DNA of 64,000 nt from Hormiphora californensis (taxonomy: Eukaryota; Animalia; Ctenophora). The notes under the pieces were generated by a model. It searched no databases, was not told the origin of the DNA, and saw only the letters and a list, made by a program, of their open reading frames with translations. The stretch lies in contig CM035352.1 in NCBI GenBank assembly GCA_020137815.1, forward strand, positions 7,998,001 to 8,062,000. The letters are read 5' to 3'. Made by a program: the position numbers and the translations under genes. Each line of letters starts with the position of its first letter. The stretch's first letter is position 1. Shown here one piece after another: positions 2,419 through 54,715 of this stretch.

Positions 2419-2500
2419 TGAGACTAAGACTAAGACTAAGACTGAGACTGAGATGGAATGAATGACAGTAGTTTTCTAACTAACTCCCCCTTACTCTCAG

Positions 2501-7001: not shown

Positions 7002-7170
7002 TAGGGGTATACCAAGACGGTGACAAGGTGTGACAATGGGGGACTTGGGTGAATATGTTGTTGTAGTTGGTAGAGCTGGAGCACACACGTGCAGCTGAGT
7101 TCTTGGTTTGTGATGGTGATGGAGAGGTGTAGTAACTTATTACATGCCTTGTGTTTTATACAGTTTGTTT

Positions 7171-7277
<107 letters not shown>

Positions 7278-9317: not shown

Positions 9318-11413
9318 TCAATCAATATCCGAATCATCGAGAGGTTCAAATCCATCGTTCCCCTTCGTCAGGTGCATGTTCTCATCTGTTGACACATAGG
9401 TTCTGTATCCATGATCCCTGAAGGAGAGTGGTGTTACGTCTTGTTGTCTCCCCTCCCCCTTGTTGAGTATCAGTAGGGGGTTTTACTCAACAACTCTCAC
9501 CCCTGTCCCCTAAATCCAACATGGATTCAGAAACTCAACAAAAACCGTTCCCCTTTTTACCTGTTTCGGGCGATGATGAAGTAGACAACTCCAATGATGA
9601 GTGCCAGAGCGAGGGTAGCGGCGGTGATTATTAGTGCTAGCTTGGTCTTGTCCTCTACAATATCTTTAGGAATGATCCCGTATATCAGTTCACTTTCACC
9701 CTCTGAAATGTGATTATGAAATCATTATGAAGCCATCGGCATCAAGATCGCATGGGAGATCTTTTGGGTTCTATAATTGAACTCAACTCAAACTGTCTCA
9801 GTTTGGCGCTGAGACAGACTACAGATTGTGTGAGACATGATAATAAAATAATAGCAGGTTTCAAACAGCAAGACACATTACTAATCAATATAACGCATTA
9901 TCATAGTAATAGCACATTACTAATCAATATAACGCATGCTTACCAGTCTTGTGCGGCTTGGTAACAATCTTGGGTGGCTCTAGGGAAACAGAATATATCA
10001 TGCAAACATGCAACAAGAACATAACAACACATATCATTAACATTATCAATTAATTAATTGATCCCAATCACAAATTTCCATTTTGAAGCTTTATCTTTCT
10101 TTGTACTACAAAGTACCATTTCCGACAATTATCAATGGTGTCATAATAATAGTATTATCATTATACTACTGATTAATACTCATAAAAGATCAGAGAAGCG
10201 CCCATGCTCTATAGAAATACAATTTGTCTTACCTGTGGGTTTGGCGCAAAGCTTCTTATTGTACTGAAGAGACAGCATAGGGACGAGGGTATGGGAGAAC
10301 AGTGACTTGAGAGGGTCCGCCTTTAGAACTCTGTAATCGACACCAAAATCCAACTGAAATACGAGGAGTTTTAAATGGGGGAGTTTTAAATGGGGGAGTC
10401 TGACAATGGGGGACAAAATTTTTGATTTGCAGTTCTGTGGAATATTAATTGGTTTAGTTAATTGCTAACTTATTAATTATCCGATTGTTATACTTACTCT
10501 GAAATGGGTGACTTCCTGGGTTTTATCCAAAGTTACAACAATCTTTGACTCTGTCTCCGCCATCCCAGTATAGCTCATATTTCCCTTAGGAACCACTACT
10601 GTCTCCGACTTGAGGAAGTTCTGCGAAACTTCTGACCCTGCACAGATCAAGGGTAATTAGTAGGGCTAATTACTAATTAGTGTGATTCAGTACCACAATA
10701 GTTGTGTTAAATTCAATCGAACCTATAATAACTTACCATTAATATCGGCAATTTTGAATTTCAGTTCCACGCTTGGCTTTTCACACGGCATAACAGAGAA
10801 GTTGTAGAAAAGGGGGTGTCCAAGGATTTCAGTATTACAGGAAGCACCCATGCAGTCATCGTGCACTGTACAATTCTGGCCTATCCCCCTAATACTGCTG
10901 ATAGCAGTACGGACATTGCTGCACTTCTTTTCCACTGAGGCGGTTGCAGTGCTGTTGTTGGGTGATTTAGGGTCGGATGTTCCGTTCTTGGGTTTGGTGT
11001 CGTCACTCTTGGGAGTGGAGCCCTGAAATAAAAGGTGGGATTAGAGGAAGAACCAGGTACCACTACCAGTCCCAGCCCGGCCCTTACACAACAATACACT
11101 AGTGTCCATGGGCAACGTGCTCTGGGACGTGTTAGAAAGGGGGGGGGGGGTGGGGGACATACCCAATTCGTGACGCTTGGAGACTTTACAAAAGGGGTAC
11201 GTCATACACCATGAAAAAGCAGGGGATGGGGTTAGAAAACATGGTACTGACCTTCTTAGGGGCATCTGTAGCGGCTTTCACTGGTTCCTTTTTAGCAGAA
11301 TCCTTCTGTGTAGCTACTGGCGTCTTTTTAGTTGGAGTTTTCTGGGTTGGTGCAGTCAGAGATATCAGAAGGAGTGAGGTGAGGGCGATCAAAGCAAGCC
11401 ACCGGGTAGTCAT
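9318..11413 (-). CDS. Type I membrane protein: signal peptide, Thr/Pro/Lys-rich linker, Cys-containing ectodomain, one TM helix, short acidic tail
   Basis: Signal MTTRWLALIALTSLLLISLTA. Approximate exons 11413-11252, 11022-10736, 10637-10496, 10352-10232, 9980-9944, 9702-9562, 9417-9318. TM segment LALIITAATLALALIIGVVYFII; tail GYRTY...EPLDDSDID*. Confidence 0.8.
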
Positions 11414-11847
11414 GTTAGGAGAGCTGCTGAACACTTCTGGGAGGTGGATGTGTTAACATGGATTATGGAATGAGACAATAATTATTGAAGGAACGCGGAA
11501 AGAACTAAAGCTGCTCAATAAACTTATTCGTGGAAGAACAGATGTGAGAAAACTACAAAATAGAGATACAGATGGAAGTGGAAAATAGAGACAATACCAA
11601 ATACAGTTGTGTGAGACACGAAAAGAGAGAGAGAGAATACACAGGTGCGTCTCGAGACAAGAAATAATCAAACTACGCTCTCGAGTGTATAATTTGGGAC
11701 AAAGGGAAGTGAGATCAATGGAAGAGAGATGACGAGAACAAAAGGGCGACGGGAAGAGAATAGAAACTCGCAGAGAGTACACACGAGCACACACAAATAT
11801 AGAGAGATAGGAGCGGGAACTGAGCTTGTACAAGGAAGAAAGAGCTC

Positions 11848-11908
<61 letters not shown>

Positions 11909-11999
11909 GATGATTCAGCCATTAGGCCATATTCGTCAGCAACAGCACAGTGCAATACCACCATATGTTGAAGCACACAAAGAGAGAACTCGATGGCGA

Positions 12000-12141
<142 letters not shown>

Positions 12142-12142
12142 A

Positions 12143-12232
<90 letters not shown>

Positions 12233-13125
12233 CGTGTGTGTACAGCATTTCGACACGTGGCCCACACCACACGGGATCTCACCAACACATAAAGCACAGA
12301 TGGTCAATGACTTTAAAACTATGGAGCGAGAAATGGGACGCCCCCACAGATAATAATGAAATATATCTACAATATATCTTTTATCCTGTTCAAAAATAGA
12401 CTAATAGTAATAAAGACTCATGATAATGGAGCTTTTAAATCGTGCTCTACTACTTCACTACTACACTAAACACTACTAAAAGTACACTAAACACAGACAA
12501 AGACTTTAAAGATCACGGGGAGACATGTAACACAGAGAAAAGGACACAATATGGTACATGATACATTGTGACTCGTATTGTAGTTTACTACACTGTGTAG
12601 TTAGCGCGGGGATGTTATATAATTAGAAACGAAGATCTTTACATGAACACAACAGAATGAAAAAGATGATATAAGTAGAAAACGAAGAAATGAGAACAAG
12701 AGGGAGGCGTAAAATGCTGTAAGCCTTATTTAGCTTATATGGTTGATGATCGACACGTAGATTCAGATTGACGTGCAACTCGAACGACCGAACACTGTAG
12801 AGAGATCTAGGATGAAATAAACGAATGTTGACCACATACAGCATAAGAGAATGAAACATTGATCTATCCAAGCGAGGGTATCTCAGAGGAGTAATCTTAG
12901 CTATATGTGCAATTTGTACTGACATAAGAAGTAGGCTGACTCTCTCATCTCTACTATTAGAGTAAAGAGGTCAGAGTAGATACCAAGATTCTCCAGGTAT
13001 AGTAATAATGGTATGTTGTAATATTTGAACTGCTAAAATATAGGGAGTGGGTGGAACACACCACAAAAAGCAAACGAGGGAATGAAAATTGAGAAATAGA
13101 GAGGGTAACGGGAGCAAGAAAGAGA

Positions 13126-13197
<72 letters not shown>

Positions 13198-13687
13198 TTG
13201 TGTCGCAATATTCACAAGCTGGATCAGTGAGAAATAAAAGATAGTGAGGGGTAACAGCTTGGGTCCCTTTAGTTATACAAAGAAATATAGTACCACTCTC
13301 AAGATCAGAGACAAAGAGAACTATTATAGTATTAAGTTTCAAGTTAAGAACTACAGCACCTGATGTGATGGGTTGCGTAACAATTTGAAACCATTGAAAA
13401 GTCTCCAATAAGGAATATAGGTTCATACTGAAATTGTTTTCTCAGTTTTTAAAACTGACCACTGGAGGCCGGGCCTGTGGGTGGTCAAGACTCTATGAGA
13501 CAAGAGATAAACATTTTGCCCTTGACCACAATTAAAGTGGATGATGGTTACGATCCATTTAGAAATAATTATATCAGATATAAGGGGTGGGTAAAAAATA
13601 GTGTAACAAAATACATGCTCTTTTTACTGATACAAAATAGAGTTCTTCAAAATAAAATGTCTTAGCTGTTCGTTGTAGCCACATTTC

Positions 13688-16600
13688 TCAAATCCAGGCT
13701 TTCTGTTTGATCGTCCTGAATTGAAAAAAAAGGTTAATCAATGAGTGGGGTATTCAACTAGGTCTTATTGAACTAGAAATAGGTGGTGGGCGGTACAATA
13801 ATACTGAAGACATGATTGATCAAAAGTGAAGCGAGCATGGATCTGATAATCCTTGATAAAAGGGAGGAGGTAACAACTTACTTTTTGGTAAGTTTCCTTC
13901 GCTCCGTGCTACTCTTCACCAGTTTACCCTGTAACTACGTGGTTAGTGTTTAGGATTGCTAGGAAACATTGCAGTAAGAAATAGTTCTTAGGATCCATGG
14001 TCTAAACTTCTAAACTAAACTTCAATAACAAGTTAATCAATTAATTACCTCCACTAACTGGTTAACTAATCAACTAATTACCTCTTTAATGTAAATCTCG
14101 TTACGGGCAGCTCGAGAGTTTGAGATGTACTGCAGTTGTTCCCTCAGAGTCATCTCGTGGAAGATATAGCTGAGTTTTGATTTCGTGTTTGATAATGTTT
14201 CCAGCAACCTGCAGGAAGATGTACGATTTAGAAATTCTCAATCTTCTCTTTCTTAGGATTCATTTAGTTAGTGAAAGCGATCAATCAACCCCCCAAGTCC
14301 CACACGCTCTGGCCTCTGACCGGGACCCGATATCAAAATCTCGAAAATGAGAACTCCCCCCTCCCCTCCCCTAATTACCTCGTGTTAAAGACTCTATCCT
14401 GAGCACTCTGTATCTCATCTTCCGTTAACAGAATGGCCCGTGTATCTCGTATTGTTTTGATATGTTCCTGAACTTTGTAACTTTGGAGAAGTCGACGGGT
14501 GAGGTAGCCCCTTACCAGCGCACCTATCTTACTAGCTGGTCCAACAAATACCTGTAATACACTGATGATAAACACTGCAACTGATCGGTTATGAAGGGAG
14601 ATATAATTTAGAACTCATTTATTAATGATGAGAAGTCAAAAACTGAAATCTATTATTTGACAGTACCTGACTATCAGATGTCTTGTAAGAATCACATCGA
14701 ACCCTTCTGTGGGGTGCTACTGCTGCCGTGGGGGACATACTGGCTACCACTGCAATGCTCCTTTTAGGCGACATTATGCCAGCACCCTCCCCTCCTCTGT
14801 CAGGCACCGTGCTGGCCAATCCACTCCCGTGAGAGGACCGAGGAGATTGGCTGGGTATGACATCCCCTCCTCCTCTCTCCTGCTGTTTCCATGTGCCCCT
14901 AGGGGTAGTCTTTAACCGGGGGCTGTTAACTCTCGGGCTATTAACCCTGCTACTGCTGCCACGCCGTGTAGTAACGTTCGGTGAGTCGACCTCAACATAA
15001 AAGGATATATTACGGCGGGGTGATTCTTCCTCTGTAGGAGAGGTGGTAGGGGGATGAGAGTTAGTTCTAGGTTCGGCCCATTTGCCACCTTCCCTTGATT
15101 CTCCTGAAACCTCCCCACTGGCCTCAGCAGAAGCCTCCTCATTTTTAGCTGGCTCGGGCCCAAAATCCAGTTTCCTACGAGCACTGAGACTGAGGTCCAG
15201 TTCGATAGCTGCTTCCAGGGCTTCCAGGTGTCTCAGGACTTTGTGAGAGGGCGGACTAACTACCGAACTGAAAAGAGGGAGAGGTTGGAGGAGTTGAATA
15301 GTGTTAGTTAGATAAATCATACAATTTAAGTTGAATAAATAATGTTATCAAGTTGAGTTAATTGTATAACTAGGTAAGTCGAATAAAATTAGAAGCTGGC
15401 GAAACAATATTCTAGTTCTACCTGAGCAGTGTTGTTTGTGTGTTGCACATTGTGGCCCCCTCCTCTTCAGAGGTATCTGGTGCAGCCCTAACTAATCCTC
15501 CACTTCCTAGAAGACCCCCTGATTTCCTCTCGACTGGAGCAGTCCCTACTTGACCTCTTGTATTCCCTACTAGATCTCCTGCAGTAGCCCCGGGCAGACC
15601 TCCTGTACTAGTGCTACTGGAACCTACCAGACCTCCTGAACTATTTACAACTCCACCAATTGAATCGTATGTTCCCTCAGAAGTAAATGGAGCGCTTGTC
15701 TCCCTACTCCTGGAAGTAACAGGTGCTGTTATTCTGGCCTCCCTGAGAGATGGTCCGATGCGGGTTATGGCGGGAGATTGGCTATACTGACAAGCAGGAG
15801 CAGCCAGAGCGGTTCGTCTTGATTCTGAAAATATGTAGGGTTATTAGTTGTAAATTTGGTAGCTATGGTAATTGGTTACATGTGTACTAATTGCGACATA
15901 AACACTGCTTATCTGGCATCTTATCATGAATTTTTCAGGTCTTACTTATATTACGAATTTTGGTCAGTTTTGATGTTTGAAGTGCGCGCGCTGCATCGCG
16001 CGCTAGTTCACAACAGCCCTCATAACACGGTCACGGCGCCCTACAAACACTAACATTGGATGCACGGAAAAGTGCTGCAAAAAACACCCAATTTAGCAGC
16101 TCTACATACCAGGTTGTGTTATAACAGTGGTAGTGTGTTCTTCCCTTGCTGTAATGTAGACAGGAGAGGAGGAGGTGGTATCACTATCACTATCAATTAT
16201 CGGTTCAATTTCCCGCCTTTCTCCCTCCATTTCTCCAATTTCCCGCCCTTCTCCATCCATCTCCTCCATTTCTCCCTCCATCTCCCCTTCTCCGTCTATC
16301 TCTCCACTATCCGACTCATCAGGAGATGAGAGAAGCTCACTAGTCGTGTCTGTAGAGACAAATTCAGTTCTTGATTGCTCTGTACTACTAACCCTCTCCC
16401 TGTGTTTCTTTTTAATTTGCTGAAGTTGAAGTTTAGGGACTCTCTGATCCTGAGAAAAATAGAAGGAGATTTTAATTACTTTAAATTTAACTTGAACTAT
16501 ATTTAAACAGACTAAATCACCGCTGTTTCTCGTGCAATTAGCCACAATCTATTTTATATCAAAGTTAGTTACCTGATTTTCCCATTGTGTTAGCCTCTCT

Positions 16601-17386
16601 ATCGCTTTGTCAATATCAACTCTTAGTTCAGACCTTTTCTCTTGACTCAGCTAAAATAAACACATTTTGGAATCAATACAAACTAAAAAACAGAGGTCTA
16701 TACAGTTGGATCTCACGTGGAGACACCAATAATTTATAATGGAAGGCTGATCATGATCCCTGACTCACGTTTGGTAAGGGTAGGGCGACACAAGTAAACA
16801 ACCAATCAGAACTCGTTATTTAGGTCACGTGACTGGTTATCAGCCAATCAGGGACCAGTATTTCCTGATTCCTACTCCTAACTCACGTTTGGTAAGGGGA
16901 GAGCGACGTTGTTCAAATAGAAGTGTTGGGACATTCGGAGGGGTGGAATATCAGGAAGGGGAGGAAGGGGTAGTCTATCAAGTATTGAATCAGGCTTCTT
17001 TAGTAAATCAGATACCTGAAGAAGAACAAATATTAATTTGGTAGTAGATTTGAAGCTCTATACCCCACATCAACAATGATTTTGTGGCCAATATTTCCTA
17101 TGTTTTGTGACATATTTGGAAATTACCCCCCAGTTATCATCACTATTACAGTTAGAACCCCGATTTACCGAAACCCCGATTTACCGGGAGAATAAACTAG
17201 CCCCGAAATATTTTGACCTACTCTCACTAAAATTTTCAGAGAATAATTATTTTAACTAGTCATGACATGTTATCTCCACCGAACCTCTTTGTTTTGCAGC
17301 CTCTGTATCACGTGTCTAGTCTGAACTCTGAGGAGAAATGAACACCCGCTAGGGGAACAACTCCTTGCCTTCCTTCTTTTGTTCAT
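13688..17386 (-). CDS. CCP110: Centriolar coiled-coil protein 110 (CP110)-like
   Basis: C-terminal IQ-like block KIGALVRGYLTRRLLQSYKVQEHIKTIRDT matches the CP110 calmodulin-binding region. N-terminal FYLNNVALPLPN/LSQEKRSELR resembles the CP110 N-terminal motif. The first exon and start are uncertain. Confidence 0.8.
16787..16871. repeat. Short interspersed repeat (gacacaagtaaacaaccaatcagaactcgttatttaggtcacgtgactggttatcagccaatcagggaccagtatttcctgatt)
   Basis: Lies in an intron between two copies of the exon end and donor. Recalled as a very common Pleurobrachia repeat; not verified. Confidence 0.6.
17147..17205. mobile_element. Partial terminus of the tacagt..ccccgattta MITE family
   Basis: tacagttagaaccccgatttaccgaaaccccgatttacc resembles the end of the element at 49516. 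Confidence 0.5.
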
Positions 17387-18050
17387 TTGTTTTTCACTCA
17401 AACGGTATGGCTAATGGTCTTGTCTTCTAACTATTTATCATATACGGATATATAGCGGACCCAGCTGATCTTTTTCCTTCTCTCTCTGATCTTTGGGCAT
17501 CTTTTTTTCCTTTTTCTCCCCCTCTCTCTCTCTGCTTTCTCCACCGATCCGTGGGAGGAGGGGTAAATGGGCAAGGGACAACATTATCACGTGACCTGAT
17601 TATGTGGACACGTGATGGCGTGATGCCTACCAGCATGCTGTGTCTTCTCTTCACATATATATTCTGTACTGTTATGCAAGAACTCAATCACCGGGTGCGC
17701 CTCAAGGCTCAACCATGAGCGGATGACAAACCCACCTCCGCTGGCCCTCTTTTTCACCACTGAAAAGCCAATTTTATGGTTGACATGGTAACATACCGCC
17801 ATACGCTCTTTATACTTTGTTTGGGTTGTCAGCACTTTGTGAGGTGTCACGCAGCGTGGGTCTAACTCCGCTTCATGATACCTCGGGTATTTATACCATC
17901 ATGGTACAAAATTAGGTCGGTACTTTTTGTAAGTTGGTCTGTAACAGTTAACACCCTCTTTTATCAAGTGATATTTGTGTTAACATGATACGTCTCCTCT
18001 TTTATCAAGTGATATGTGTGTTAACATGATACGTCTCCTTCTCTTCACAG

Positions 18051-19095
18051 CTGCATTGTGTGGAACAGTTGTTCTCACAGGTTCGTAATATATATTTGAT
18101 GCTTTGTAGTTTATAAAATGTGCGACAAATATGATCGCAAAAGCATCGCCCCTTTACCCACCTGAAGTTAGGGATTTTGTTTGTCCGTCAAAAATCTACC
18201 AGAAGTGGACATTGTCAAACGAACATTCAACAACCGATCTCGGTCGTCTAAGCAGGTCACTAAGCGACCAGTCAAAACGTTAGACTGACTTCTGATAGGG
18301 ATGTGTCGAAAAAATTAATTAAAACTTCCCAAATGATCCCTATTTGATTCTTATAAATATATTTTATTTCAGACTGGACAGCTGCAGAGCGGAATGTAAA
18401 TATACCCTGGGACCTGGAGGCAACACCTCTCCAGATAAAGACGGACTCTACTCTGGGTAGCAATGATGCGATTTGGGTGTATTTGTATAACAAAAGCAGC
18501 ACCTATGTCGGTGCTGTGCACGTGAAATTCTCCTCCTCAATGCAGTATGAGATATACAAATGTGTATATCCGTACAGAAACCTGCCAGTACAACCCCCGA
18601 GTGAGGTGGAAAAGATCTGGACGATCACCAAGACAGAGGCCGCCATGATCATCACATGTAATGGTGTCGAGGTGGTGAACTACCTGTTCGCAGATAGTTC
18701 GGATAGCGACTGTAGTACCTTGTCTCAGCCTGATGTTGTGGAGGAGATTCACTTTAGCGGTGATCATGATAAAGCATCTGACTTCTACAGAGCAGGTATT
18801 AGAATCTCGATTAAATTCACACCAATTATAGTACTGCACAGTATGTGGTGGTGGTGGTGTCATATCTTGCTAACTCATTGACAAGTACAATGATCGTACA
18901 CCAATTACTATTTCCATTCAGAACCAGAGTGTCCTGCATTTACTATTGAGGGATCAACTCAAGAAAACTGGGAGGCCTCACCAATAGAGACAACTGCCAC
19001 CATCGACTGTGCTGCCAACCATATCCTAATGGGAAGTGCAACACTGACGTGTCAGCAGGATGGATCGTGGTCAAGTGATGTACCACAGTGTGTTG
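18051..19095 (+). CDS. Extracellular protein: uncharacterised beta-rich domain followed by a sushi/CCP domain (ends not resolved)
   Basis: Phase-1 exons at about 18051-18080, 18373-18794 and 18922-19095. Sushi motif CPAF...IDCAANHILMGSATLTCQQDGSWSSDVPQC. Confidence 0.75.
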
Positions 19096-19721
19096 GTAAG
19101 TTAATTTAGTAAATTATTTCATTTAAAAAGTTTCTTAGCTTTTGGATTTCTTACTCTTGTGGTTTCATAGAAAAACGTTTCTTATCTAAGAGTTTAGGAT
19201 GGAACATCAATCAGTCCTTCTCTAGATATCTGTCTGGGAAGGATTCAGCAAAATCGGGAAAAATTTGGTAAAAAGTGACCCATCTTCATACGATTCCTTA
19301 TCTCAGATATATTCCCTAACATAACACAGATTAACAATACATAATGCAGGGCCTGGCAAGGCCCACCCCGACCCCGAAAATAAACCAAACTCAACCCACC
19401 CAATAAAAAGACAACACAATTACTGACAGTTATAGTCGGTAAGTAATTGGTAATTATTAATTACCCAATTAATTACTAATTAACTTACCACTGCATCGAT
19501 GAATACACTCGTGCATATATCCATAGCTGCTAGATCACTATATGAAAGAGGATTTGATAAGATAGTGCGAAAAGAGATACATCGCAGATAATTGCTAACA
19601 AGCACATGTGTGCAGAGTTAGCAAATACTTGCAAAATACACACGTGGTACGCAAAATACACACGTGGAAACTGTTAGAAACTACAGACAAACTGACAAGG
19701 GTTTAGATACATATAATATAA

Positions 19722-21290
19722 ATAGGCCAGTCGTATGACGTTTATTTCTGGACATAAAAGTTGTAAATCTAATTCCACTTCTATTGCACTCTAATAGGTC
19801 CCTAGAAACACCACAAAAACAGCCCGGTCGGTACGTGGGGGAGAACTTGCCTTAATTGGGCCTAATTGGTTACAGGGTATTTTCAGCCTGAAGCCAAAAC
19901 CATAAGTACCCTTAGAATAGGAGTAGAGAAAAAACCAAGGGCATTAAAGTGATCAGCGTCCTCGCATTAGTGGGGGTAGACGCCAATGAAAAGTCTCTAT
20001 CTCATCTGGTTAATTAGATAATTGGATAATTAGATCTGTGCATAGCCGTTTTTGGCCATATGGCTATAGCCACTTAGGAATGGTTTAGAGACTTTTCACT
20101 GGTGCCATTTTGTAGGCAATGGCCAAGTTATGGGGGGTCGACGTCGGACTTTTAAGCTCTATCTCCAACCGTTTAGCCGTTATTTGACTTTAAAAGTGCT
20201 CAAAATGAGCAAAAAACGGTAAAAAGCCCGATTTTTAGCACATTTAAAGCCGAATAACGGCTAAACGGTTGGAGATAGAGCTTAAAAGTCCGACGTCGAC
20301 CCCCCATAACATGGCCATTGCCTACAAAATGGCACCAGTGAAAAGTCTCTAAACCTTCCTAAGTGGCTGTAGCCATATAGCCAAAAAACGGTTATGCGCA
20401 TAACTAATTATCCAATTATCTAATTAACCTGATGAGATAGAGACTTAAAGGGCCTAAAAACCCAAATTTTATTTAATTATTTTGAACACTACATCGTAAC
20501 AAGCATGCTATAGGAGTCCCAAAAAACATAAGTACACGCCCCACCCGCCCAATGTGAGCCCAGGGGGAGCCCCTCAAGTTGGGGCCCAGTCGGGGTCCCC
20601 TTGTAAACGCGCTTGTACTCCTTGAAATGCTAACAATATGATCCTCTCTGAAATTTGAAGTTTTGGGTAAAATTTAGCATTGTGTTTCAGGTGAGAACAT
20701 AATCTTTCTTGTCTCTGTATTCTGGTAATTTTTCTCCTAGTTTTGATGACTTAAACAATAATTGATGAGAAAGATTATGAAATCTACTAAAACACAAGGA
20801 TAGTTTCTATTTTATATTTGAGAGAGGATCATATTGTTAGCATTTCAAGGAGTACAACCGCGTTTACAAGGGGACCCCAAATGGACCCCAACTTGAGTGG
20901 CTCCCCCTGGGCTCACCTGGGGCCCGTGTGGCGTGTACCTATGTTTTTTGGGACTCCAATAGCATGCTTGTTACGATGTAGTGTTCAAAATAATTAAATA
21001 AAATTTGGGTTTTTAGGCCCTTTAATTCCAGCATCTACCCCCACCAATGCGAGGACGCTGATCACTTTAATGCCCTTGGTTTTTTCTCTGCTCCTATTCT
21101 AAGGGTACTTATGGTTTTGGCTTCAGGCTGAAAATACCCTGTAACCAATTAGGCAAGTTCTCCACCACGTACCGACCGGGCTGTTTTTGTGGTGTTTCTA
21201 GGGACCTATTAGAGTGCAATAGAAGTGGAATTAGATTTACAACTTTTATGTCCATTTTTATCTAAATCCGACGTCATACGACTGGCCTAT
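19722..21290. mobile_element. Foldback (palindromic) non-autonomous element of about 1 kb, centre near 20220, right arm interrupted by a nested MITE
   Basis: Termini ataggccagtcgtatgacg / cgtcatacgactggcctat. 19722-20215 is the reverse complement of 20225-20448 plus 21022-21290. Confidence 0.9.
20449..21021. mobile_element. TTAA-flanked MITE with long TIRs (Kolobok-like AG...CT ends)
   Basis: TTAA|agggcctaaaaacccaaa ... tttgggtttttaggccct|TTAA, with about 200-bp inverted arms. Confidence 0.85.
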
Positions 21291-27420: not shown

Positions 27421-28378
27421 TTATCTCCAGAACAAGATTGTATAGAGGGCGAGTACTGGTATTAATAGAACCAGACTGAGCGTTGTCCTTGATCCCTGTG
27501 AAGACCAGAGTTCCACATTTTCTTCACCTAACAGAAAAATGAAATGTGTTAGGAACATACATTTGGATTTTCTAGAGTTGAGGCAATAACATTTGAATAA
27601 GGGCGGCCATTATGACAGAGCAGCACTGTGACTCACATTTTTGTACATTCATGTAGATTTCACCCCATGGTAGTTCCAGTGCTTCATCCACCAAGTCCTC
27701 TGCTTTAGTACATAGTGCCTCTTCTGGCTCCATACAACCAGCAACCTTCAGTTTCAATGTTGTTTCAGCGACATCAAGCCGTGTATAAATCCTAAAACGG
27801 GCACGCGGTATTTAGGGAGTAAAAACATTGAACAACAAAATGTTAATACAACAGTGATTCTCTAAAGAATCAGAGATCAGGAGAAGAAGAAAAACAGGGA
27901 AGTAAAACTAGATGAGAATGGTTTTACTAAAAGCTTTGAACAAACAAAATGTTATTGATAAATTAAATTCTCATAAAACAACAGTGACCATTTTCTATTC
28001 CACTAACTTGGTCCTGAAATCAAATGTCCTGCACTTGAGACCCTCATCACAAAGTACCTCCCTGGCTAACTCACAGTTTTCCTCAGGAAAATACTCGTAA
28101 AAAATCTGAAATAAAGATTTTAAGCATTTTCCTAGTTGTGAGACACAAGCTTGCTCTTACAATACCATATATGGGCATCACGTGGTTGCTCTCACCTCGT
28201 GACATTATAATACCATATTTGGGCATCACGTGCTCACCTGTTCTATGTCATCACTGGTTGATTTAACACCCATTTCCAGACATTCTCTGCAAGTCTCCTG
28301 GGGGACTTTACTTTCTGATAGGTGCCTCTCAGATAAAGTTACCACCAATAACACCATACTAACTATTAGTTGCCTCAT
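27421..28378 (-). CDS. Small secreted Cys-rich protein with a hydrophobic C-terminus (GPI-anchor-like; possibly Ly6/three-finger-like)
   Basis: Approximate exons 28378-28238, 28105-28008, 27791-27637, 27528-27421. Signal MRQLIVSMVLLVVTLS; CRECLE...C...C...C...GC...C...C; ends SSQGSRTTLSLVLLIPVLALYTILFWR*. Confidence 0.7.
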
Positions 28379-29147
28379 CTTCCACACAGCTGTACTAAAA
28401 TGGATCGGAGTGTGGAGTGTGTGAAATGTTTTAAGCGTTTGGAGTGTGTCCTGCCGCGCCGGCAGCGAGAGCTTTATTTTTTATTGAAAACTGCAAGGAG
28501 AGGAAATGAAGAGAAATGCAATTATTGTGAAGCTAACGATCTAAACTACTACGAACTCATAAAACTAATAATAAAAGTACTAAGACTATATTAATTAGTT
28601 ATATAACCACTTCTCTCTCTAGCTCTCTTCCTCCCCTCTCTCTGATCTTCTCTCTATCTTAAGTCTTTCCCTCTGTTGGAACACAACTCTAAATCTCTAC
28701 AATTTAAATGATTACAATTACCATTACATACTGGTAATGTACTAAAACACAACTAGGAGTGGGCGTTGGCCGTTGGGCATGCAGCCCCCCTCCCACTGTC
28801 CACTCCCATGGCATTCTTACAGGGGGGGGGGTAGCCGGTAGGAGGCTGATATTTTGGCCAAAATGAGCTCAAAACAAATGCATTAACAATGTGCATGACA
28901 TCTTTAATAGTCAAGTTTTCTATGGAGGTTCATAAGAAAGACCTTGAAGTTTCGTAAGTGAATAAAATGTAGCAGTCTTTTGCACGGTTTGGATTTGATC
29001 TGCTGTACATGTTTTTACTTCAAAAAAACCCGCTTTTAAGTTATTTAACATCCACTGATTGTTTTTTCTAAAAAAACCCCGCCTTTTAATCCAAATTGTT
29101 TCCCAGTTTACTACCCCCATGACTTCTTCTCTAGGGAAAGAGAGGCC

Positions 29148-31236
29148 ATGGCACGTCGACTTGGAATGCTAAGTCTAGCTAACCTGAACCCATGCGTCAA
29201 GGAGATGCAGTATGCAGTTCGGGGTCCAATTGTTATTAAAGCTGCTGAACTGGAGGGACAACTAAACAAGGTAGGCCAGGGGGCAACTGATAAAAAGGGA
29301 GGCCAGTGCAGTAGTACATAATTGAAATAGGTAGTGGGCAAAAAGGGAGGGAGAAAACGAGTTGTCCAGCTAAGTTGTGCGTATGTACAAGACACGAGGG
29401 GCATTATTATAGTAAATTAAGTGGTAAAACAGTTCTAGACGTGAAGCTAGAAACAAGCTAGTGTCAATTAATAATTGAAGGGGCACTAATTGTGTACCAC
29501 ACATACGCACAGTAGTACGACACATAGTTTTACTGCTAAACTATCTTGCATTTTGGTATAATAGCAGTCTAGTACTAAGCTGCGGCAGAGTCGGAGTTGA
29601 GAGAACAGAGTTGACATAAAATAATGTGTTTTAGCTGCATATTACACGGGGGGGGGGGGGGGGGGTAAGTGTTTTTACAGTTCATGAGTTGTTCATAGGG
29701 CGGTTTCTAAGTTTCGTGGAAGCCGTTTCTCTGAGCCCTTCCGTGTGCTAGCTGGAGAGAGAGTTCTGAGAAAAATATAAAATGAGAGGAATTAGGTGAA
29801 GAGAGAATCTGCATGGAGAGAGAATCAGTATGGAGAGAGAAGAGAGAAAAGAGAAAGTTGTATGGTAAGCTGTCACCAAGCAAAAGCGGGATGTTCAATT
29901 TACCACAATAAAAAAGAGGGGTGTATCTGGTGTAAGAACATTAAACGTTTCGGTCCAAGATAAAAGTAATGTGTATATTGAAAACTTGACACGACAAGAC
30001 AAAGACTTAGACAAGACAAGACAAAGGGATAGGTATTATAACAAAAGGAGAGATAACTTAGAAAATATGGCATGGATATATCTTGGTGTAACACCCTGCA
30101 TACAAATCACACACAGTGTCATGTTTAGCATTGTTGTTGGGAGAAGCAGATTCATGAATAGTAATTGAGTGGCGGGGGACATGTGTTGTCAGATATATCG
30201 GGATAGTATTGGTATCTGTCATTAGTCAAGTGAGAAAGAGAGTGAGGGAATGAGAGGGAGAGTAAGGGAGAGAGAGATATAGAGTGAGATAAACGAGTCA
30301 CGAGAAGAAGATAAGAGAGAGTATTACAAATTGAACTATTAAGAGGGAATATTATTAACTTTACCGAAATGATTCGGAGTTCGCAACACCCACCCGTCCT
30401 AACACACCACCCGTCCTAACACACCACCCGTCCTAACACCCTCTCTCCCCTCCAGGGCGCCAAGTTACCATTTGAGCAAGTTATCAAAGCCAACATTGGT
30501 GATGCACACGCTATGGGCCAGAAACCCATCTCCTTTGTAAGAGAGGTGATCGCCTTGGCAACTTGCCCATCTCTCATGGATACTGCAACTGGGTTCAGCG
30601 ATGATGCGGTGACAAGGGCTAAAGAGATTTTGGGATCAACTGGGGGAGGAAGTGTTGGTGAGTTTATAGGAGTCTATAATAGTCTCGGTTGATGATGTTC
30701 AAATTAAGGGAATAGTATATGGGCTACAACACAGAATTCACTAAACAATGATCTCCACCTCTCTATCTATCTCTCTATCCCTCCAATCAACTCCTAACTC
30801 CACCTCTCTCTCTCCAGGTGCATATACTAACTCAGTTGGTATTTCCACTGTATTGAACCACGTTGCTGAATACATCACCCAGAGGGATGGTTACCCCGCC
30901 AGCCCTTCCGATATCTTCCTGGGTACTGGTGCTAGTGGCTGCATCAAGGTATAACGTGTTTTACAACGTGTAGTTCAGTTCTTAGTTTGTTCATCTATCA
31001 AATTATGTTACACCAACCTCCTTTCCCCATACTCATCTTGGTTTTCGAAACATCCTCACTAACATTTAGCTGTGCTATAGTTTACGCAGTTTGATTCAAT
31101 TTGATCCCACCCCTCCCCAGAATATTATGAAGTTGTGCCTGACTATGGATGCAGATAACAAGCCTGGATTCATGATTCCTGTACCTCAGTACCCGCTATA
31201 CTCAGCTTGTACCGCTGAGTTTAACGCTCACCTGGT

Positions 31237-31321
<85 letters not shown>

Positions 31322-32528
31322 GGGGGGAGTTGGTCCACCTGCCACCACCTCCAATCGGTTTCCCCCGGGCAACGGGGTCACACGGAGTACCTTTTTCCCC
31401 ATCCCCTTTTCCCCCTGTTCGATTTCCAGGTCCGTGTGGCCGCGGCTGAGCGTGGCTGTGTATCAGAAATACGGAAAAAAAATCAGAAAATACAAAATAC
31501 AAAAACATCTTGGCTAGGCGGTCCACAGTGTATCAACGCCAACTACTACGTTCCTACCCCGCCTTCTCCGGCTCAGGGTTACCAGTGGAACAGGCATCTT
31601 CCAGCCAACTGTGGACCCCCAACGCCCCTTTATCCACTAACCCGCTAACCAATACTGTTTTTGTTCTACTGGCCCCCCTAACCCACTTCTTCCTTTTTTG
31701 ATAGGGTTCTACATCGGAGATGATTCTTTGGAACGGGGTGGCTGTCCTCTCTGGAGCGGGGTCGGCTGTCCTTACTGGAGCGGGGTCGGCTGTCCTCTCT
31801 GGGGCGGGGTGGCTGTCCTCTCTGGAGCGGGGTCAGCTGTCTTTACTGGAGCGGGGTCGGCTGTCCCTACTGGAGCGGGGTCAGCTGTCCTCTCTGGAGC
31901 GGGGTGGCTGTCCTCTCTGGGGCGGGGTCAGCTGTCTTTACTGGAGCGGGGTCAGCTGTCTTTACTGGAGCGGGGTCAGCTGGCTTCTCTGGAACGGGGT
32001 CAGCTGGCTTCTCTGGAACGGGGTCAGCTGGTTTCTCTGGAGCGGGGTTGGCTGTCTTCTCTGGGGCGGGGTCAGCTGGCTTCTCTGGAACGGGCTGGCT
32101 GTCCTCTCTGGCTCGAAATGTAATCATCATCCATTTGTATTAATTTATTATTTTTTTCGCTCGAACCCGTTCCTGCTTGTTTTAGGCTGCCTTAGATCCA
32201 GACGGTTTGCTTCTTCAGTTCCTGATAAGTTGTCTCTTCTTAGAATACATTGTAGCAGATTGGGCTTCTTTGCAGATAGTTTAGGAGGTCTTGTGCTCCG
32301 TCACCATGAGCTTTAATCCCACTTTACTTCCCCTTTTTAATATCATCCCCTTTCCTTAACCCATATGTACATTGTTAAATTTACCCGTATGTACATTGTT
32401 CTACCTACCCTACCTTTACTCCGCAGGCCCTCCGGGCCCTCAGATCCAACAGGATCCGGGTCCGGGGGATTTAACCCTGCTCTCGCATGGGGCCTCACGG
32501 CCCCATGTGGGAGTGGTGCGTGTAGTGG

Positions 32529-32577
<49 letters not shown>

Positions 32578-33987
32578 ATTGCTTCCTTGTTTTTATAGAC
32601 GCATAATATGCACACGTCACGCAAATATCTCTCTTTTTATCTGAACAAAACCTGGACCAACAATGCTTGAATTTTCTCCACGTCAATTCTTTTTCTCTCA
32701 CAGCTGCATCTTTCTATCTCTCCATCATTATCTCCAACTATCTCACAATCCCCCTCCATATTTCTCTCTCCTGAGTCCTCTCTATTTCCAGATAAGTTAC
32801 TTCATGAATGAAAGTAACAACTGGACTTTGGACAGAGCTGAACTGGAACGAGCCTATGAAGAGTCTCTGAAACATTGTATCCCTAAAGCTATCTGCATCA
32901 TTAACCCAGGTATGAAACTTCTGGAACATTCTGCACACAGTAACACCACAGCTGTTGCTGCATAACGAATGTGTTATATTCGGCATCGCGCTTCTGGACG
33001 ATATTATGCAGCTCTTGTTTTAAGGTGCTGCGCGCTGTTACCGAATGCTTCCCTTGTGAAGAAAGCACACTCATTTTCGCGCGCCCTAACATCGGAGCGT
33101 GGGAAAAGTTCCCACGGTTCAAACCCGCGCTGACAAGCGCTATCCCCCACGCGGCATATTGCATAACAGGATTTAAGTAGGTGTTATGTTATAACCCCAC
33201 CCATGTTTCAGGCAACCCTACTGGCCAGAACCTGCCTGCCGAGAATATAGCCGAGATAATCCGGTTTGCACACGATAAACAGCTGCTGATTATGGCAGAT
33301 GAGGTCTACCAGGACAATATCTGGACAGAAGGGGATAATTTCACGAGTTTCAAGAAAGTTCTACGATCTCTCGGACCTGATTTTGATGACCAACCTCTAG
33401 CATCGTTCCACTCTGTCTCAAAGGGTTTCATGGGGGAATGTGGGCTGCGTGGTGGATATTGTGAAATGACCAACTTCCCCGAAGATGTTAAGACCATGCT
33501 ACTAAAACTGATCTCTGCCAGTCTATGCTCCTCGACATCTGGTCAAGTAGCAGTGAGCTGTATGGTAAAACCTCCTACAGGGGACGCCAGGGAGACATAT
33601 GATCGGGAGACCAAGGCTGTCCTGGCGAGCCTCAAAGAGAGATCTGTGATGGTACATGAAAAGTTGAATGCTATCCCGGGTATAAAGTGTAACCCCCTGC
33701 AAGGAGCAATGTATGCCTTCCCCGCCATAGACCTCCCCACTGGTGCTATTGAAACTGCCAAGTCACAGGGGATGGAGCCTGATTTCCTATACTGCTCGGA
33801 GCTACTAGATGCAACTGGGATTTGTGTGGTCCCGGGCAGTGGATTCTGGCAGACCCCTGGTACCTACCATTTTAGAATGACCATTCTCCCACCTAAGGAC
33901 CAGCTTGTGGTGTTTTTGGACAAGTTAGCCGAATTTCATGGACAGTTTTGTGAGAAATATTCTGATGTTTCTCCTCTGGGAAGTTGA
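29148..33987 (+). CDS. GPT: Alanine aminotransferase (PLP-dependent)
   Basis: Exons 29148-29270, 30456-30657, 30818-30948, 31121-31234, 32792-32909, 33212-33987. Motifs MQYAVRGPIV, ANIGDAHAMGQKP, PVPQYPLYSA, INPGNPTGQ, ADEVYQDN, SFHSVSKGFMGECGLRGGY, GICVVPGSGF. Confidence 0.97.
31323..31456 (+). ncRNA. HDV-like self-cleaving ribozyme (predicted)
   Basis: P1 GGGGGAG(31323-29)/UUCCCCC(31360-66); P2 GCCACC(31341-46)/G(C)GUGGC(31450-56); P3 ACC/GGU with 7-nt L3 UCCAAUC; P1.1 GG followed by GCAAC; P4 CGGGGUCACACGGA/UCCGUGUGGCCGCG; J4/2 G-C(31446)-UGA. Confidence 0.8.
31727..32111. repeat. 23-24-bp GC-rich minisatellite (gctgtcctctctggagcggggtc[a/g])
   Basis: About 16 degenerate tandem copies visible. 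Confidence 0.92.
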
Positions 33988-34983
33988 AATGTGTGAAGTT
34001 TTGTAGTGAGTGTTTAGGATATAAGAGAAAGATGTTTTTGATGGACTTTTTTATACGGAAAGATATGATTTTTCTTCATTTTTCAAAAAGATGTAAAGTT
34101 TTACTTTTAGATTTTACCCAATTACATGACTTGTTTTCAGTTCGATCTATGTAGCAGGGCTCCTCTCCCCTCTACTTTTCCACACTGACTAGAGATTTTG
34201 CTAAAAGTAGGGGATGGAGAGGGGCCCTGCTTGGCAAAGGGTGAATTGAAAGAATGGGGACCGAGACAAAATGCTATTAACATAATTCCCCGAGACTAAT
34301 CACCAATTAGGCTTCCCCCATTTTAGTTAAACAATGGATGGTAATGAGGGGATTTCTAGTTTCCACAAAATCGGGCCCATTATTACAGCCCCCTATTGTC
34401 TTAGGGTGATGCAATGAGAAGCTGCTATTAAAAGCTCTTATACCACCACTGCAGGGCGAATGAGCAGAACCGTTTTTGCATAATTGATCTGTACGCCATC
34501 TGGCTACCTCTTAAAACGCGGCACCAGATTCTTGGACATTAGGCACTTCTTCAGCTTCTTCGCGTTTTAGTGAGGAGAGAGAATGGTAGGCTCTATAGGC
34601 AAATCATATATAATACCATTGCGTTATATAAATGTCAGAAACTCCTCTGACCTTCTAAAATTGTGAGTGCACTTCTGTCGCAACTGTAATAATTCCCTAT
34701 CGACGCGTGACGCTCCCCGTGCTTCAGCCCATATGCTCTATCCCCCTGTTCCTCTCTCCCAGGGGAGGGTGTCAGGGAGGGGGATTACTGTCATCTGACA
34801 GGTCACACAATAGTAGTAGTGTGGTCATTTAATAATTCCCAGTCCCTCCTACTACTGGTGCCTCCTTACTCAACTATATTTCTACTAGTGCACTTTGTAA
34901 ATTTCCTTCAATCCGTCCCACCCTATCCTCCTGTACTTTAGTGCACGTGTCACTTAGTAGCTAACCCTCTTTCTCTCTCTCTT

Positions 34984-35031
<48 letters not shown>

Positions 35032-35194
35032 TCTCTCTCTCACTAAACTGGTGATCGTAGGATTTGTCACCTATAAATTCCCACTATAATAAATTCCACC
35101 TCGTGAATTACCGCGTGATAGTACTACTGCTGCGTGGTGGTAGCCCACTAATTCCCTCCGTCGACCCTCCCAATTCAGTTCTCCCCCTAGCACA

Positions 35195-35678
35195 ATGCCC
35201 TCAGTCGATCATCCCGTCCTAAGGGTCCTTCTCCTGACCATCCTCCTTCTCTCGTTCATATCAGCAGGTATGTCAAGGGTTTGGTTATGAAGTTACCCTT
35301 GCCAGCACGAGGGGTTATTTCGTAACCAAGTCATGGGTCTGGTCTCTGAGTTAGTGGCTAGTGAGTTACAGAAACCACTTTAGACTACTAGCTGTCTGGC
35401 GTTGCCCCGTTTTGATCTCTAAACCTGGTGCTTTCAGAACGGGCCAATGCCTGACATGAGTTACAACCCCTAAATATATTCACATTGTACCCGCCCTTTT
35501 GAAATGTTCCACGCCCTATAGTTTCTCTGCTAATAATATATGTTACGTTTCAGTGTACAGTCGATCAGTGGGATTAGAGGATGCGATTCTGGGGAGCGAT
35601 ATTGTCAGTTCTAACAACGAGGAAGAAGGCATGTTAGGACCTATCATGATGTTTGATGGAGATGCAGACTTGGCTTGA
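35195..35678 (+). CDS. 65-aa secreted peptide precursor (candidate neuropeptide)
   Basis: Exons 35195-35267 and 35554-35678 (G|gtatgt ... tttcag|TG): MPSVDHPVLRVLLLTILLLSFISAVYSRSVGLEDAILGSDIVSSNNEEEGMLGPIMMFDGDADLA*. An acceptor (ccccctag) lies 4 nt before the ATG. Confidence 0.7.
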
Positions 35679-36118
35679 TCTGACCTCGCTCTCCGCTCAG
35701 AGGGGCAAAGAAGGGGTCAGCGGGATAATGTGGGACATTTGGTGATTATTGTGGGGGCTGTACACAGGGTAGTTTGTAGGGACACAGGGTGCTCGGCTGG
35801 TCCTCACCCTCTTGCCAATTTGCCATACGGCTATATACCAGATATAACGTGAAGCACCTATCACCATGGTGATATGGTGATGTTACCATAATGTTGTTAC
35901 CATGGTGATTGGTGCCATGTAGGTGATGTTACCATGGTGCAGGTGATATTCAGAGAGAGAATTTGATGTATGAAGTTTATTATAAATTGTATTGATTCGG
36001 CATACTCTCAATATTTTACTATTGAAAACTTGGTGTCTCTCTAATTTAATAGTAACTAAACAATTCAAAACAATATTTACATAAAACCTCCCTCTCTCTC
36101 TCTCTATCATTCTCTCTA

Positions 36119-36449: not shown

Positions 36450-54390
<17,941 letters not shown>

Positions 54391-54715
54391 CTCCGAACCA
54401 CTTTCTGTCCTGCGAGTCCTTGTCTGAGTGAAAGGGAGGGTGAGGGAAAGGGAGGGTGAGAGACAGACAGCTAGATGTTTAGAGGGAGATAAAGTCAGTA
54501 CGTAAATTCAGTGATGGATATTTAGATCCATGTATGGGATCTACTGCTATACTGAATAACCCTATGAATAAAAGCATAGTTTATTGGACGCGATAAGGGA
54601 CGTTTATATGGAGACGCCGACAGTACGGATAAGGGGTTCCATCTTTTTTCTATCTCTCTATCTCTCTCTCTCTCTGTCGGTATAAACGGGGAACTAAATT
54701 CATTTAGTGAAGGAC

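What the first reader, a model, noticed from the sequence alone, without database searches (positions are those of the whole stretch)
31323..31456. HDV-like ribozyme in sense orientation about 90 nt into an alanine aminotransferase intron
Seen: every element of the HDV/CPEB3 nested double pseudoknot can be placed. These are a 7-bp P1 starting with G, a 3-bp P3 with a 7-nt UCC-containing loop, GG of P1.1 followed by GCAAC as in genomic HDV, a 13/14-bp P4, the G-C-U-G-A joiner with the putative catalytic C at 31446, and P2 with one bulged C. Known: HDV-like ribozymes form the 5' ends of R2, RTE and other non-LTR elements, and one sits in a CPEB3 intron. Inference: it would cut ALT pre-mRNA just after the (GA)n tract, release the downstream element from the host transcript, and might affect ALT splicing.
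Basis: partly seen in the sequence, partly recalled or inferred. Interest (0 to 1): 0.9.

Follow-up and report, generated by a model that had tools for sequence, protein, structure and literature searches.

The report
Ribozyme-headed jumping element in comb jelly
The HDV-type ribozyme fold is really there, as the front end of an abundant 1.2-kb non-coding repeat sitting in GA microsatellites of what is likely a comb-jelly genome; it would likely cut the repeat's RNA free for copying by an unknown retrotransposon, and is predicted to do so slowly because a near-universal active-site G is replaced by U, so it probably barely disturbs the host gene.

Summary
All HDV helices map at 31323-31456, and no match with a P4 as long occurred in 250.8 Mb of shuffles; Rfam's HDV models do not hit it. 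The fold is the 5' end of a 1209-bp non-coding element (31323-32531) lying between two (GA)n tracts in an alanine aminotransferase intron of a probable ctenophore. Contig depth over the element is hundreds to about 2,000 times that of the exons. A second full copy (L013) is also GA-flanked and is identical in the ribozyme core and the folded 3' end (0/207 substitutions, against 29/611 elsewhere). Common variants keep the fold, but none is compensatory. In HDV that change is 290-fold slower (PMC3386971), and no G variant was seen here. Best reading: a SIDE/NARTc-like non-autonomous retroelement that targets GA microsatellites and is released by a slow ribozyme, with little effect on ALT splicing. 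Cleavage is untested and no autonomous partner was found.

The parts
31323..32531 (+). Whole non-coding element, 1209 bp, between two (GA)n tracts; no ORF or Pfam match found
   Evidence: Depth step at both ends; second full copy L013 with the same ends; six-frame translation; 0 of 6 frame pieces hit Pfam below E 0.1
31323..31456 (+). HDV-like double pseudoknot; predicted cut 5' of G31323; catalytic C31446; L3 = UCCAAUC with U31355 in place of G25
   Evidence: variants; U.U kinetics from PMC3386971
31387..31430 (+). L4, a 44-nt pyrimidine-rich loop that takes most of the variation
   Evidence: 7 of 10 substitution sites; all 3 window/L013 differences within the ribozyme
31457..31724 (+). A-rich spacer and unique 5' body
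   Evidence: 10 substitutions in 267 aligned nt against L013
31725..32111 (+). Internal minisatellite, 24-bp unit, 16.3 copies; shorter in L013
32415..32531 (+). Strongly folded 3' end ending GTGGACC, with no poly(A); candidate recognition signal for a partner reverse transcriptase. Its last 17 nt can pair with 31332-31349
   Evidence: fold of 32415-32535 z -5.87, 0 of 200 shuffles as good; 0 of 117 differences against L013; end pairing
31237..31321 (+). Upstream (GA)n tract, 42.5 units, starting just after the 5' splice site; likely the target
   Evidence: GA, GATA and GACA tracts precede other copies (table 7; L013)
32532..32573 (+). Downstream (GA)21 tract
   Evidence: same junction in L013
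31121..31234 (+). Upstream ALT exon
   Evidence: 82.5% identity to P0004 residues 156-195; splice sites
32792..32909 (+). Downstream ALT exon, in phase 0 with the upstream exon; the intron is 1557 nt, or 348 nt without the element
33212..33984 (+). Long open ALT exon (257 codons) used to place the host
   Evidence: PF00155; 76% to Bolinopsis microptera ALT2-like, at most 58% to other named animals

Best explanation
The HDV-like fold is the head of a high-copy, 1.2-kb, protein-free repeat that sits in GA microsatellites, and it likely works as a slow self-cleaving ribozyme that frees the repeat's RNA from host read-through transcripts so that a not-yet-found non-LTR retrotransposon could copy it into another GA tract. 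Proposed cycle: (1) Shown: copies lie between (GA)n tracts, with GA on the ribozyme strand; this one is in an ALT intron in sense orientation. (2) Inferred: the element is transcribed as part of the host pre-mRNA. (3) Predicted: C31446 cuts 5' of G31323 and defines the 5' end. With U.U in place of U20.G25, and an early competing hairpin, the half-life would be tens of minutes to hours, so most cuts would come after the intron is spliced out. (4) Inferred: the folded 3' end binds a partner RT/endonuclease that nicks a GA/TC tract and primes reverse transcription there. (5) Inferred: ALT expression is little affected.
For: Fold above chance. Depth in run X1 is 714,005 over the ribozyme bin against 266-390 over covered ALT exon bins; in X2 it is 7,385 against 6-24; it falls off at both GA tracts. 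L013 is a second full copy with the same two junctions. Both ends are conserved and the middle is not: 0/207 against 29/611 substitutions, Fisher P 3e-4. Of 10 substitution sites at >=1% in 4 runs, 7 are in L4, 1 in unpaired L3, 1 turns G-C into G-U and 1 turns CUGA into CUAA; none breaks a pair or touches C31446 (P about 0.015). In 3 of the 5 listed 5' loose ends at 31320-31323 the flank is a GA, GATA or GACA tract, and one GACA tract runs right up to G31323. Different tract types suggest pre-existing host targets rather than a tail carried by the element. Known precedent: R2 SIDEs (PMC3414825), NARTc and SIDERs (PMC4035085), and bipartite RTE, Ingi, Vingi and R2 derivatives (PMC5786205). The U23/U28 HDV mutant is active but 290-fold slower (PMC3386971).
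Against: No cleavage data. Loss of the L3 G abolished cleavage in a Nasonia R2 ribozyme (G to A), and the sow-bug R2 fold without it did not cleave (PMC3774820). Two trypanosome SIDER folds that looked adequate were inactive (PMC4035085). A competing hairpin, G31323-27 with C31348-52, is the MFE as soon as 30 nt are made and persists in the nested folds. No compensatory pair change was found. Three of the L4 sites are adjacent and come largely from one contig, so there are fewer than 10 independent events. Single-base deletions in P1 (31362) and P4 (31374) appear at 2-4% in X2; these are homopolymer errors or decayed copies. One RNA-library contig (X7 record 17) has 35 letters beyond 31332, about 26 past the predicted cut (letters not shown), so it is uncut RNA, antisense RNA or DNA. 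No target-site duplication can be read inside the GA tracts. No partner was found. Summed contig depth is not a copy number.
Confidence: 0.62

Rival explanations
1. Same element and same retrotransposition, but the fold is catalytically dead or nearly so. It is kept as a protein-binding or promoter module of the 5' end, as the R2 5' RNA binds its protein and Pr77 is also a promoter.
For: G25 is absent in the window and L013, and no G variant reached 1% in 4 runs. G-less R2 folds were inactive (PMC3774820). A misfold trap exists. An RNA-library contig crosses the cut site.
Against: C31446 and the C-N-R-A pattern are kept, including in the G31448A variant. 5' junctions sit at the predicted cut. 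The U.U mutant of HDV still reached 44% cleavage in 2 h (PMC3386971).
Confidence: 0.17
2. One reading: a fast ribozyme that cuts nascent ALT pre-mRNA and tunes ALT splicing, as in CPEB3.
For: Sense orientation 88 nt into the intron; intact helices. CPEB3 shows that an intronic HDV-like ribozyme can compete with splicing (t1/2 2-3 min, 9,931 nt to the next exon; PMC10919898). A ribozyme at wild-type HDV speed would cut 58-93% within 0.5-1.5 min.
Against: The U.U core predicts about 1% cut in 1.5 min. Only 1,469 nt separate the cut from the 3' splice site. The fold belongs to a high-copy repeat, and nothing shows that this insertion is conserved in relatives.
Confidence: 0.07
3. The element is mobilised by a Penelope-like element rather than a LINE.
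For: Naiad and Chlamys PLEs prefer microsatellites, and Naiads occur in ctenophores (PMC8557442). A few low-depth go-back joints exist (table 5c).
Against: The PLE passages read name hammerheads and (TA)n, (CA)n or (C)n targets, with 0 occurrences of 'HDV'. Both full copies are single, full-length units with no pseudo-LTR tandem or inverted 5' piece.
Confidence: 0.1
4. A non-autonomous DNA or rolling-circle (Helentron/DINE-like) element with sub-terminal inverted repeats GGTCCAC/GTGGACC, a 3' hairpin and central tandem repeats; the pseudoknot is incidental.
For: The 7-bp inverted repeat extends to 16 pairs. Central minisatellite. [quoted passage not shown]
Against: A complete double pseudoknot at the exact 5' end with 0 equals in 250.8 Mb of shuffles. 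The inverted repeat is offset by 9 nt at the left end. Its significance is modest: 56/3000 in one test, 131/1000 and 1086/3000 in wider ones.
Confidence: 0.04

Closest known systems
R2 SIDEs and R2/R1 hybrid SIDEs of Drosophila (PMC3414825; abstract and Discussion read)
   Same: HDV-like ribozyme at the 5' end, conserved 3' end, no ORF, presumed release from a host co-transcript.
   Different: SIDEs sit in 28S rDNA, are rare and have known partners. This element is dispersed in GA microsatellites, high-copy, 1.0-1.2 kb with an internal minisatellite, has U at G25, and has no identified partner.
NARTc, RIME and SIDER elements of trypanosomatids (PMC4035085; passages read)
   Same: Abundant non-autonomous non-LTR elements with a 5' HDV-like ribozyme, some of them weak or inactive.
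   Different: No Pr77-type 77-nt hallmark was tested for; here the fold is 134 nt with a long P4/L4; no poly(A) tail; metazoan host; microsatellite target.
Bipartite non-autonomous LINEs from RTE, Ingi, Vingi and R2 (PMC5786205; passages read)
   Same: Conserved 5' and 3' ends around a dispensable middle; RTE, Ingi and R2 are clades with 5' ribozymes.
   Different: Derivation by internal deletion is unproven, and GA targeting is not described for them in the passages read.
Kibi (TC-repeat-targeting) and Dong (TAA) non-LTR elements (PMC3812793; passage read)
   Same: Insertion into a simple microsatellite; Kibi uses the same GA/TC repeat.
   Different: These are autonomous elements of fish, insects and snail. 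The passage mentions no ribozyme for Kibi. No sequence link was tested.
CPEB3 intronic ribozyme (PMC10919898; abstract and one passage read)
   Same: HDV fold, sense orientation in an intron.
   Different: CPEB3 has t1/2 2-3 min matched to 9.9 kb of intron and is (recalled) single-copy and conserved across mammals. This one is a repeat passenger 1.5 kb from the 3' splice site and predicted to be far slower.

Membership tests
HDV-like ribozymes | Nested double pseudoknot P1, P1.1, P2, P3, P4 in the right order | tested here: met
   0 equal hits in 250.8 Mb of shuffles
HDV-like ribozymes | Catalytic C followed by N-R-A in J4/2, and a G at +1 paired in P1 | tested here: met
   C31446-U-G-A, variant C-U-A-A; G31323-C31366
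HDV-like ribozymes | U20.G25 reverse wobble in L3 | tested here: not met
   L3 is UCCAAUC or UCCUAUC, with U at position 6; compare CCUCCUCGUGG of R2Dm (PMC5035012). Strongly conserved but not absolutely required: U.U is active 290-fold slower (PMC3386971)
HDV-like ribozymes | Match to an Rfam HDV-type covariance model | tested here: not met
   No such family among 10 hits (E<=5) or 4 hits (E<=10)
HDV-like ribozymes | Compensatory covariation of the helices | tested here: inconclusive
   0 two-sided changes, 1 one-sided (G-C to G-U), 0 pair-breaking among 10 sites; copies too similar
HDV-like ribozymes | Mg2+-dependent self-cleavage 5' of G1 | not testable with these tools
   Needs a bench assay; all runs laid were contigs
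SIDE / bipartite non-autonomous non-LTR element | Dispersed multicopy unit with fixed ends and no coding capacity | tested here: met
SIDE / bipartite non-autonomous non-LTR element | 5' ribozyme and 3' end conserved relative to the middle | tested here: met
   0/207 against 29/611, P 3e-4, two copies only
SIDE / bipartite non-autonomous non-LTR element | Ends shared with an autonomous LINE in the same genome | not testable with these tools
   No genome held; pattern scans gave only L013 and chance matches
SIDE / bipartite non-autonomous non-LTR element | TPRT marks (target-site duplication, 3' tail, variable 5' junction) | tested here: inconclusive
   TSD unreadable inside (GA)n; no poly(A); 0-2 extra G at 5' junctions
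Penelope-like / non-LTR retrozyme | Hammerhead motif, pseudo-LTR or tandem arrangement | tested here: not met
   No Rfam hammerhead hit in 28000-36000 or at either end; single units in window and L013
CPEB3-type domesticated intronic ribozyme | Single-copy and conserved at the orthologous intron across species | tested here: not met
   High-copy repeat; orthologous introns of other ctenophores could not be examined

The most novel reading that the evidence does not exclude
A natural U20.U25 HDV-like ribozyme, a core made in the lab and said not to occur in natural HDV, is fixed across a successful ctenophore retroelement family because slowness is adaptive. The host intron is spliced first, the element is then cut out of the discarded intron, and its 3' end folds back on the spent ribozyme to bring both ends together for an undescribed GA-microsatellite-targeting retrotransposon. 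That would be a kinetic timer that lets a self-cleaving parasite live in sense orientation inside genes.
Probability: 0.22. Interest if true: 0.72.

Novelty: new variant of a known kind. Interest (0 to 1): 0.5.

Why it matters
The class is known: HDV-like ribozymes head many non-LTR elements and their non-coding parasites. Three features were not found together in the papers searched: a ctenophore host, a GA-microsatellite target, and a U in place of the nearly invariant G25 throughout a high-copy family. If it cleaves, it is a natural test of how far the U20.G25 metal site can be given up and of whether ribozyme speed is tuned against host splicing. It also points to an unidentified microsatellite-specific retrotransposon in an early-branching animal lineage, which bears on the evolution of target specificity and on R2-type insertion tools. 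For ALT biology it probably matters little.

Tried and rejected
Rfam searches of 28000-36000, the ribozyme alone and the 3' end alone gave no ribozyme family. No whole genome is held, so copies could not be counted or classified. The metagenome pattern scan gave 14 loci; 1 (L013) was the element and 13 had no BLAST similarity to it. Viral scans gave 0, 1, 1 and 0 loci and the prokaryote genome scan gave 2. All 4 were chance matches of 21 nt or less (the query ended 6 nt short of the true 3' end). No second copy lies in the window. Coding potential: a PEKPADPA-type frame in the minisatellite breaks with 22/23-nt units, and there was no Pfam hit. A second ribozyme at the 3' end or on the minus strand was rejected: the descriptor found 0 minus-strand hits, and by-eye fits to HDV, hammerhead and twister patterns (recalled) failed. 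End-to-end pairing appears in the full-length MFE (30 pairs), but wide tests were not significant (131/1000 and 1086/3000). The terminal test was only suggestive (56/3000 shuffles; 18 of 12,768 window 30-mers) and was chosen after seeing the fold. A head-to-tail or circular junction was not among the listed loose ends (67 more not shown). Six RNA runs from 3 studies hold the element's words, but the one laid (X7) is contigs and could be DNA, so transcription is not shown. An empty ALT allele could not be tested because contigs break at the GA tracts. Earlier-findings look-ups by sequence, genome and relatives were empty.

Full report
OBSERVATION. A descriptor scan of both strands found only this site. 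In 1,959 shuffles made in 1-kb blocks (250.8 Mb) there were 95 hits with any P4, 54 with P4>=4, 19 with >=6, 3 with >=8, 1 with >=10 and 0 with >=13. I wrote the descriptor after seeing the candidate, so this overstates significance somewhat. Rfam gave no HDV-type hit. The nested MFE is a different fold, z +0.56. The best nested fold that keeps P1, P3 and P4 is -43.1 against -47.0 kcal/mol, before any credit for P2 and P1.1.

HOST AND GENE. The long exon 33214-33984 is 76% identical to an alanine aminotransferase of the ctenophore Bolinopsis microptera and 73-74% to three unnamed proteins. Among the 120 hits listed, other named animals reach at most 58%. The host is therefore likely a ctenophore. 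tblastn with that protein gave six matching segments, and the exons checked have open frames and GT/AG ends. The intron runs 31235-32791 (1557 nt) and joins two exons in phase 0. Without the element it would be 348 nt, like its neighbours of 160, 172 and 302 nt.

WHAT IT BELONGS TO. Of 24 runs listed for 31320-32530, 20 hold it or part of it, from 10 studies; 6 are RNA runs. Laying four runs on 30400-33500 shows a sharp block. X1 depth is 165,470-1,868,850 inside the element against 266-390 on covered exon bins; X2 is 3,391-20,881 against 6-24. The tool warns that summed contig depth is not copy number and short overlapping contigs inflate it, so I read this only as hundreds to low thousands of copies. 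The block ends at the (GA)n tracts 31237-31321 and 32532-32573. A metagenome scan returned 14 loci, one of them a complete second copy, L013: 1040 bp, with (GA)n on both sides and what look like library adapters (recalled) outside. It may be a collapsed assembly of several copies. Against the window it has 0 substitutions in 90 nt of ribozyme core and 0 in the last 117 nt, but 29 in 611 nt elsewhere with the minisatellite left out (P 3e-4). The 3' end folds strongly (z -5.87) and has no poly(A). No ORF survives in both copies, and 6 frame pieces had no Pfam hit below E 0.1. The window holds 29 pure GA/TC runs of 20 nt or more, and only the two flanking this element carry it.

VARIATION IN THE FOLD. 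Four runs laid on 31314-31500 gave 10 substitution sites at >=1%. Seven are in L4. A31353T is in unpaired L3, C31443T turns G-C into G-U, and G31448A turns CUGA into CUAA. Both J4/2 forms keep the purine and a stop triplet; the SIDE paper notes a stop codon in J4/2 of 18/19 Drosophila R2 ribozymes (PMC3414825). Only 1 of the 10 falls in the 62 paired positions (P 0.016). Three L4 sites are adjacent and come mostly from one contig, so the test is weaker than it looks. No two-sided compensation was seen. Twelve of 19 indels were shown; two touch helices (31362 and 31374), at 2-4% in run X2 and absent or below 0.02% in the other runs. Of 3' end variants shown, T32461C and C32462T keep their pairs and G32492A breaks one unless its partner is among the 40 rows not shown. 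Five loose ends were listed just before 31320-31323: three are GA, GATA or GACA tracts, one is a C-run and one an internal duplication; 67 further loose ends were not shown. One GACA tract joins directly at G31323, the predicted +1.

THE G25 PROBLEM. L3 reads UCCAAUC. Set against the conserved R2 core CCUCCUCGUGG quoted in PMC5035012, ours is CCUCCAAUCGG, with U at the G25 position. No G variant reached 1%. PMC3386971 (passages and Discussion part 1 of 2 read) reports U and G at these places in all 508 natural HDV sequences. It gives k2 0.0060/min for U23U28 against 1.74/min for wild type, and suggests this is why such mutants are not found in nature. PMC3774820 (passages and section 16) reports no cleavage for a G-to-A Nasonia R2 variant or for a G-less sow-bug fold. 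A hairpin between G31323-27 and C31348-52 also forms early. If the HDV rate carries over, which is an extrapolation from a trans-acting construct at 37 C, the half-life is about 115 min and 0.3-3% is cut in 0.5-5 min. The 3' splice site is 1,469 nt away. CPEB3, by contrast, has t1/2 2-3 min over 9,931 nt (PMC10919898).

MECHANISM. Shown: the fold, its position at the end of a high-copy non-coding element, conserved ends and GA flanks. Inferred from R2 SIDEs, NARTc/SIDER and bipartite LINE derivatives (PMC3414825, PMC4035085, PMC5786205, PMC6765202): co-transcription with host genes, 5' release by the ribozyme, and 3' recognition by a partner that primes reverse transcription at a GA/TC tract. 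Predicted: slow cleavage, mostly after splicing. My split estimates are 0.95 that the fold is a real HDV-type structure, 0.8 that a non-LTR partner mobilises it through RNA, and 0.7 that it cleaves at all. The partner is unknown. [quoted passage not shown] One X6 contig has a GACA flank, the ribozyme's 5' half with 4 differences and then 124 unrelated letters (record 20); it may be a sister family or the partner. The last 17 nt can pair with 31332-31349, and 32460-76 with 31357-70. This would shut the ribozyme after transcription and join the ends, but support is weak.

LITERATURE SEEN. Passages: PMC5035012, PMC8557442, PMC6765202, PMC13188248, PMC5786205, PMC3812793, PMC4035085, PMC10919898, PMC10879173, bioRxiv 10.64898/2026.07.22.740005. 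Passages plus a section: PMC3774820, PMC3386971. Abstract and Discussion: PMC3414825. Not available: PMC3308841 (Ruminski 2011) and PMC3256349, and the supplements of PMC3774820, whose ribozyme alignment could show other natural G25 substitutions. Repbase could not be searched, so the family may already be catalogued as a repeat. The search for ctenophore + ribozyme + retrotransposon found 8 papers, 6 listed; none of the listed titles or passages read describes this element.

VERDICT. A real HDV-type fold at the head of a GA-targeting non-autonomous retroelement; a new variant of a known kind. The remaining interest is the fixed U.U core and the missing partner. Interest 0.5.

Noticed in passing
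run X6, record 20, laid on window 31323-31385: A 214-nt contig with a GACA-type flank, the ribozyme's 5' half (4 differences) and then 124 unrelated letters: possibly a sister family or the autonomous partner.
   Followed up: no
window 31332-31370 with 32460-32531: The element's two ends can pair (30 pairs in the full-length MFE), looping out the 32480-32513 hairpin; statistical support is weak.
   Followed up: partly
window 1-2419: 14-bp satellite, 173 copies, 97% matches.
   Followed up: no
window 54714-56568: Tandem array of a roughly 470-bp unit, 3.4 copies at 95%.
   Followed up: no
window 43963-44481: GGCGCC-rich 20-bp minisatellite beside an assembly gap; possibly another repeat family.
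   Followed up: no
window 34135-34251: Long imperfect hairpin just after the last ALT coding exon; only sub-threshold miRNA-model hits.
   Followed up: no
window 32359-32410: 24-bp direct duplication just before the folded 3' end, with length variants among copies.
   Followed up: no
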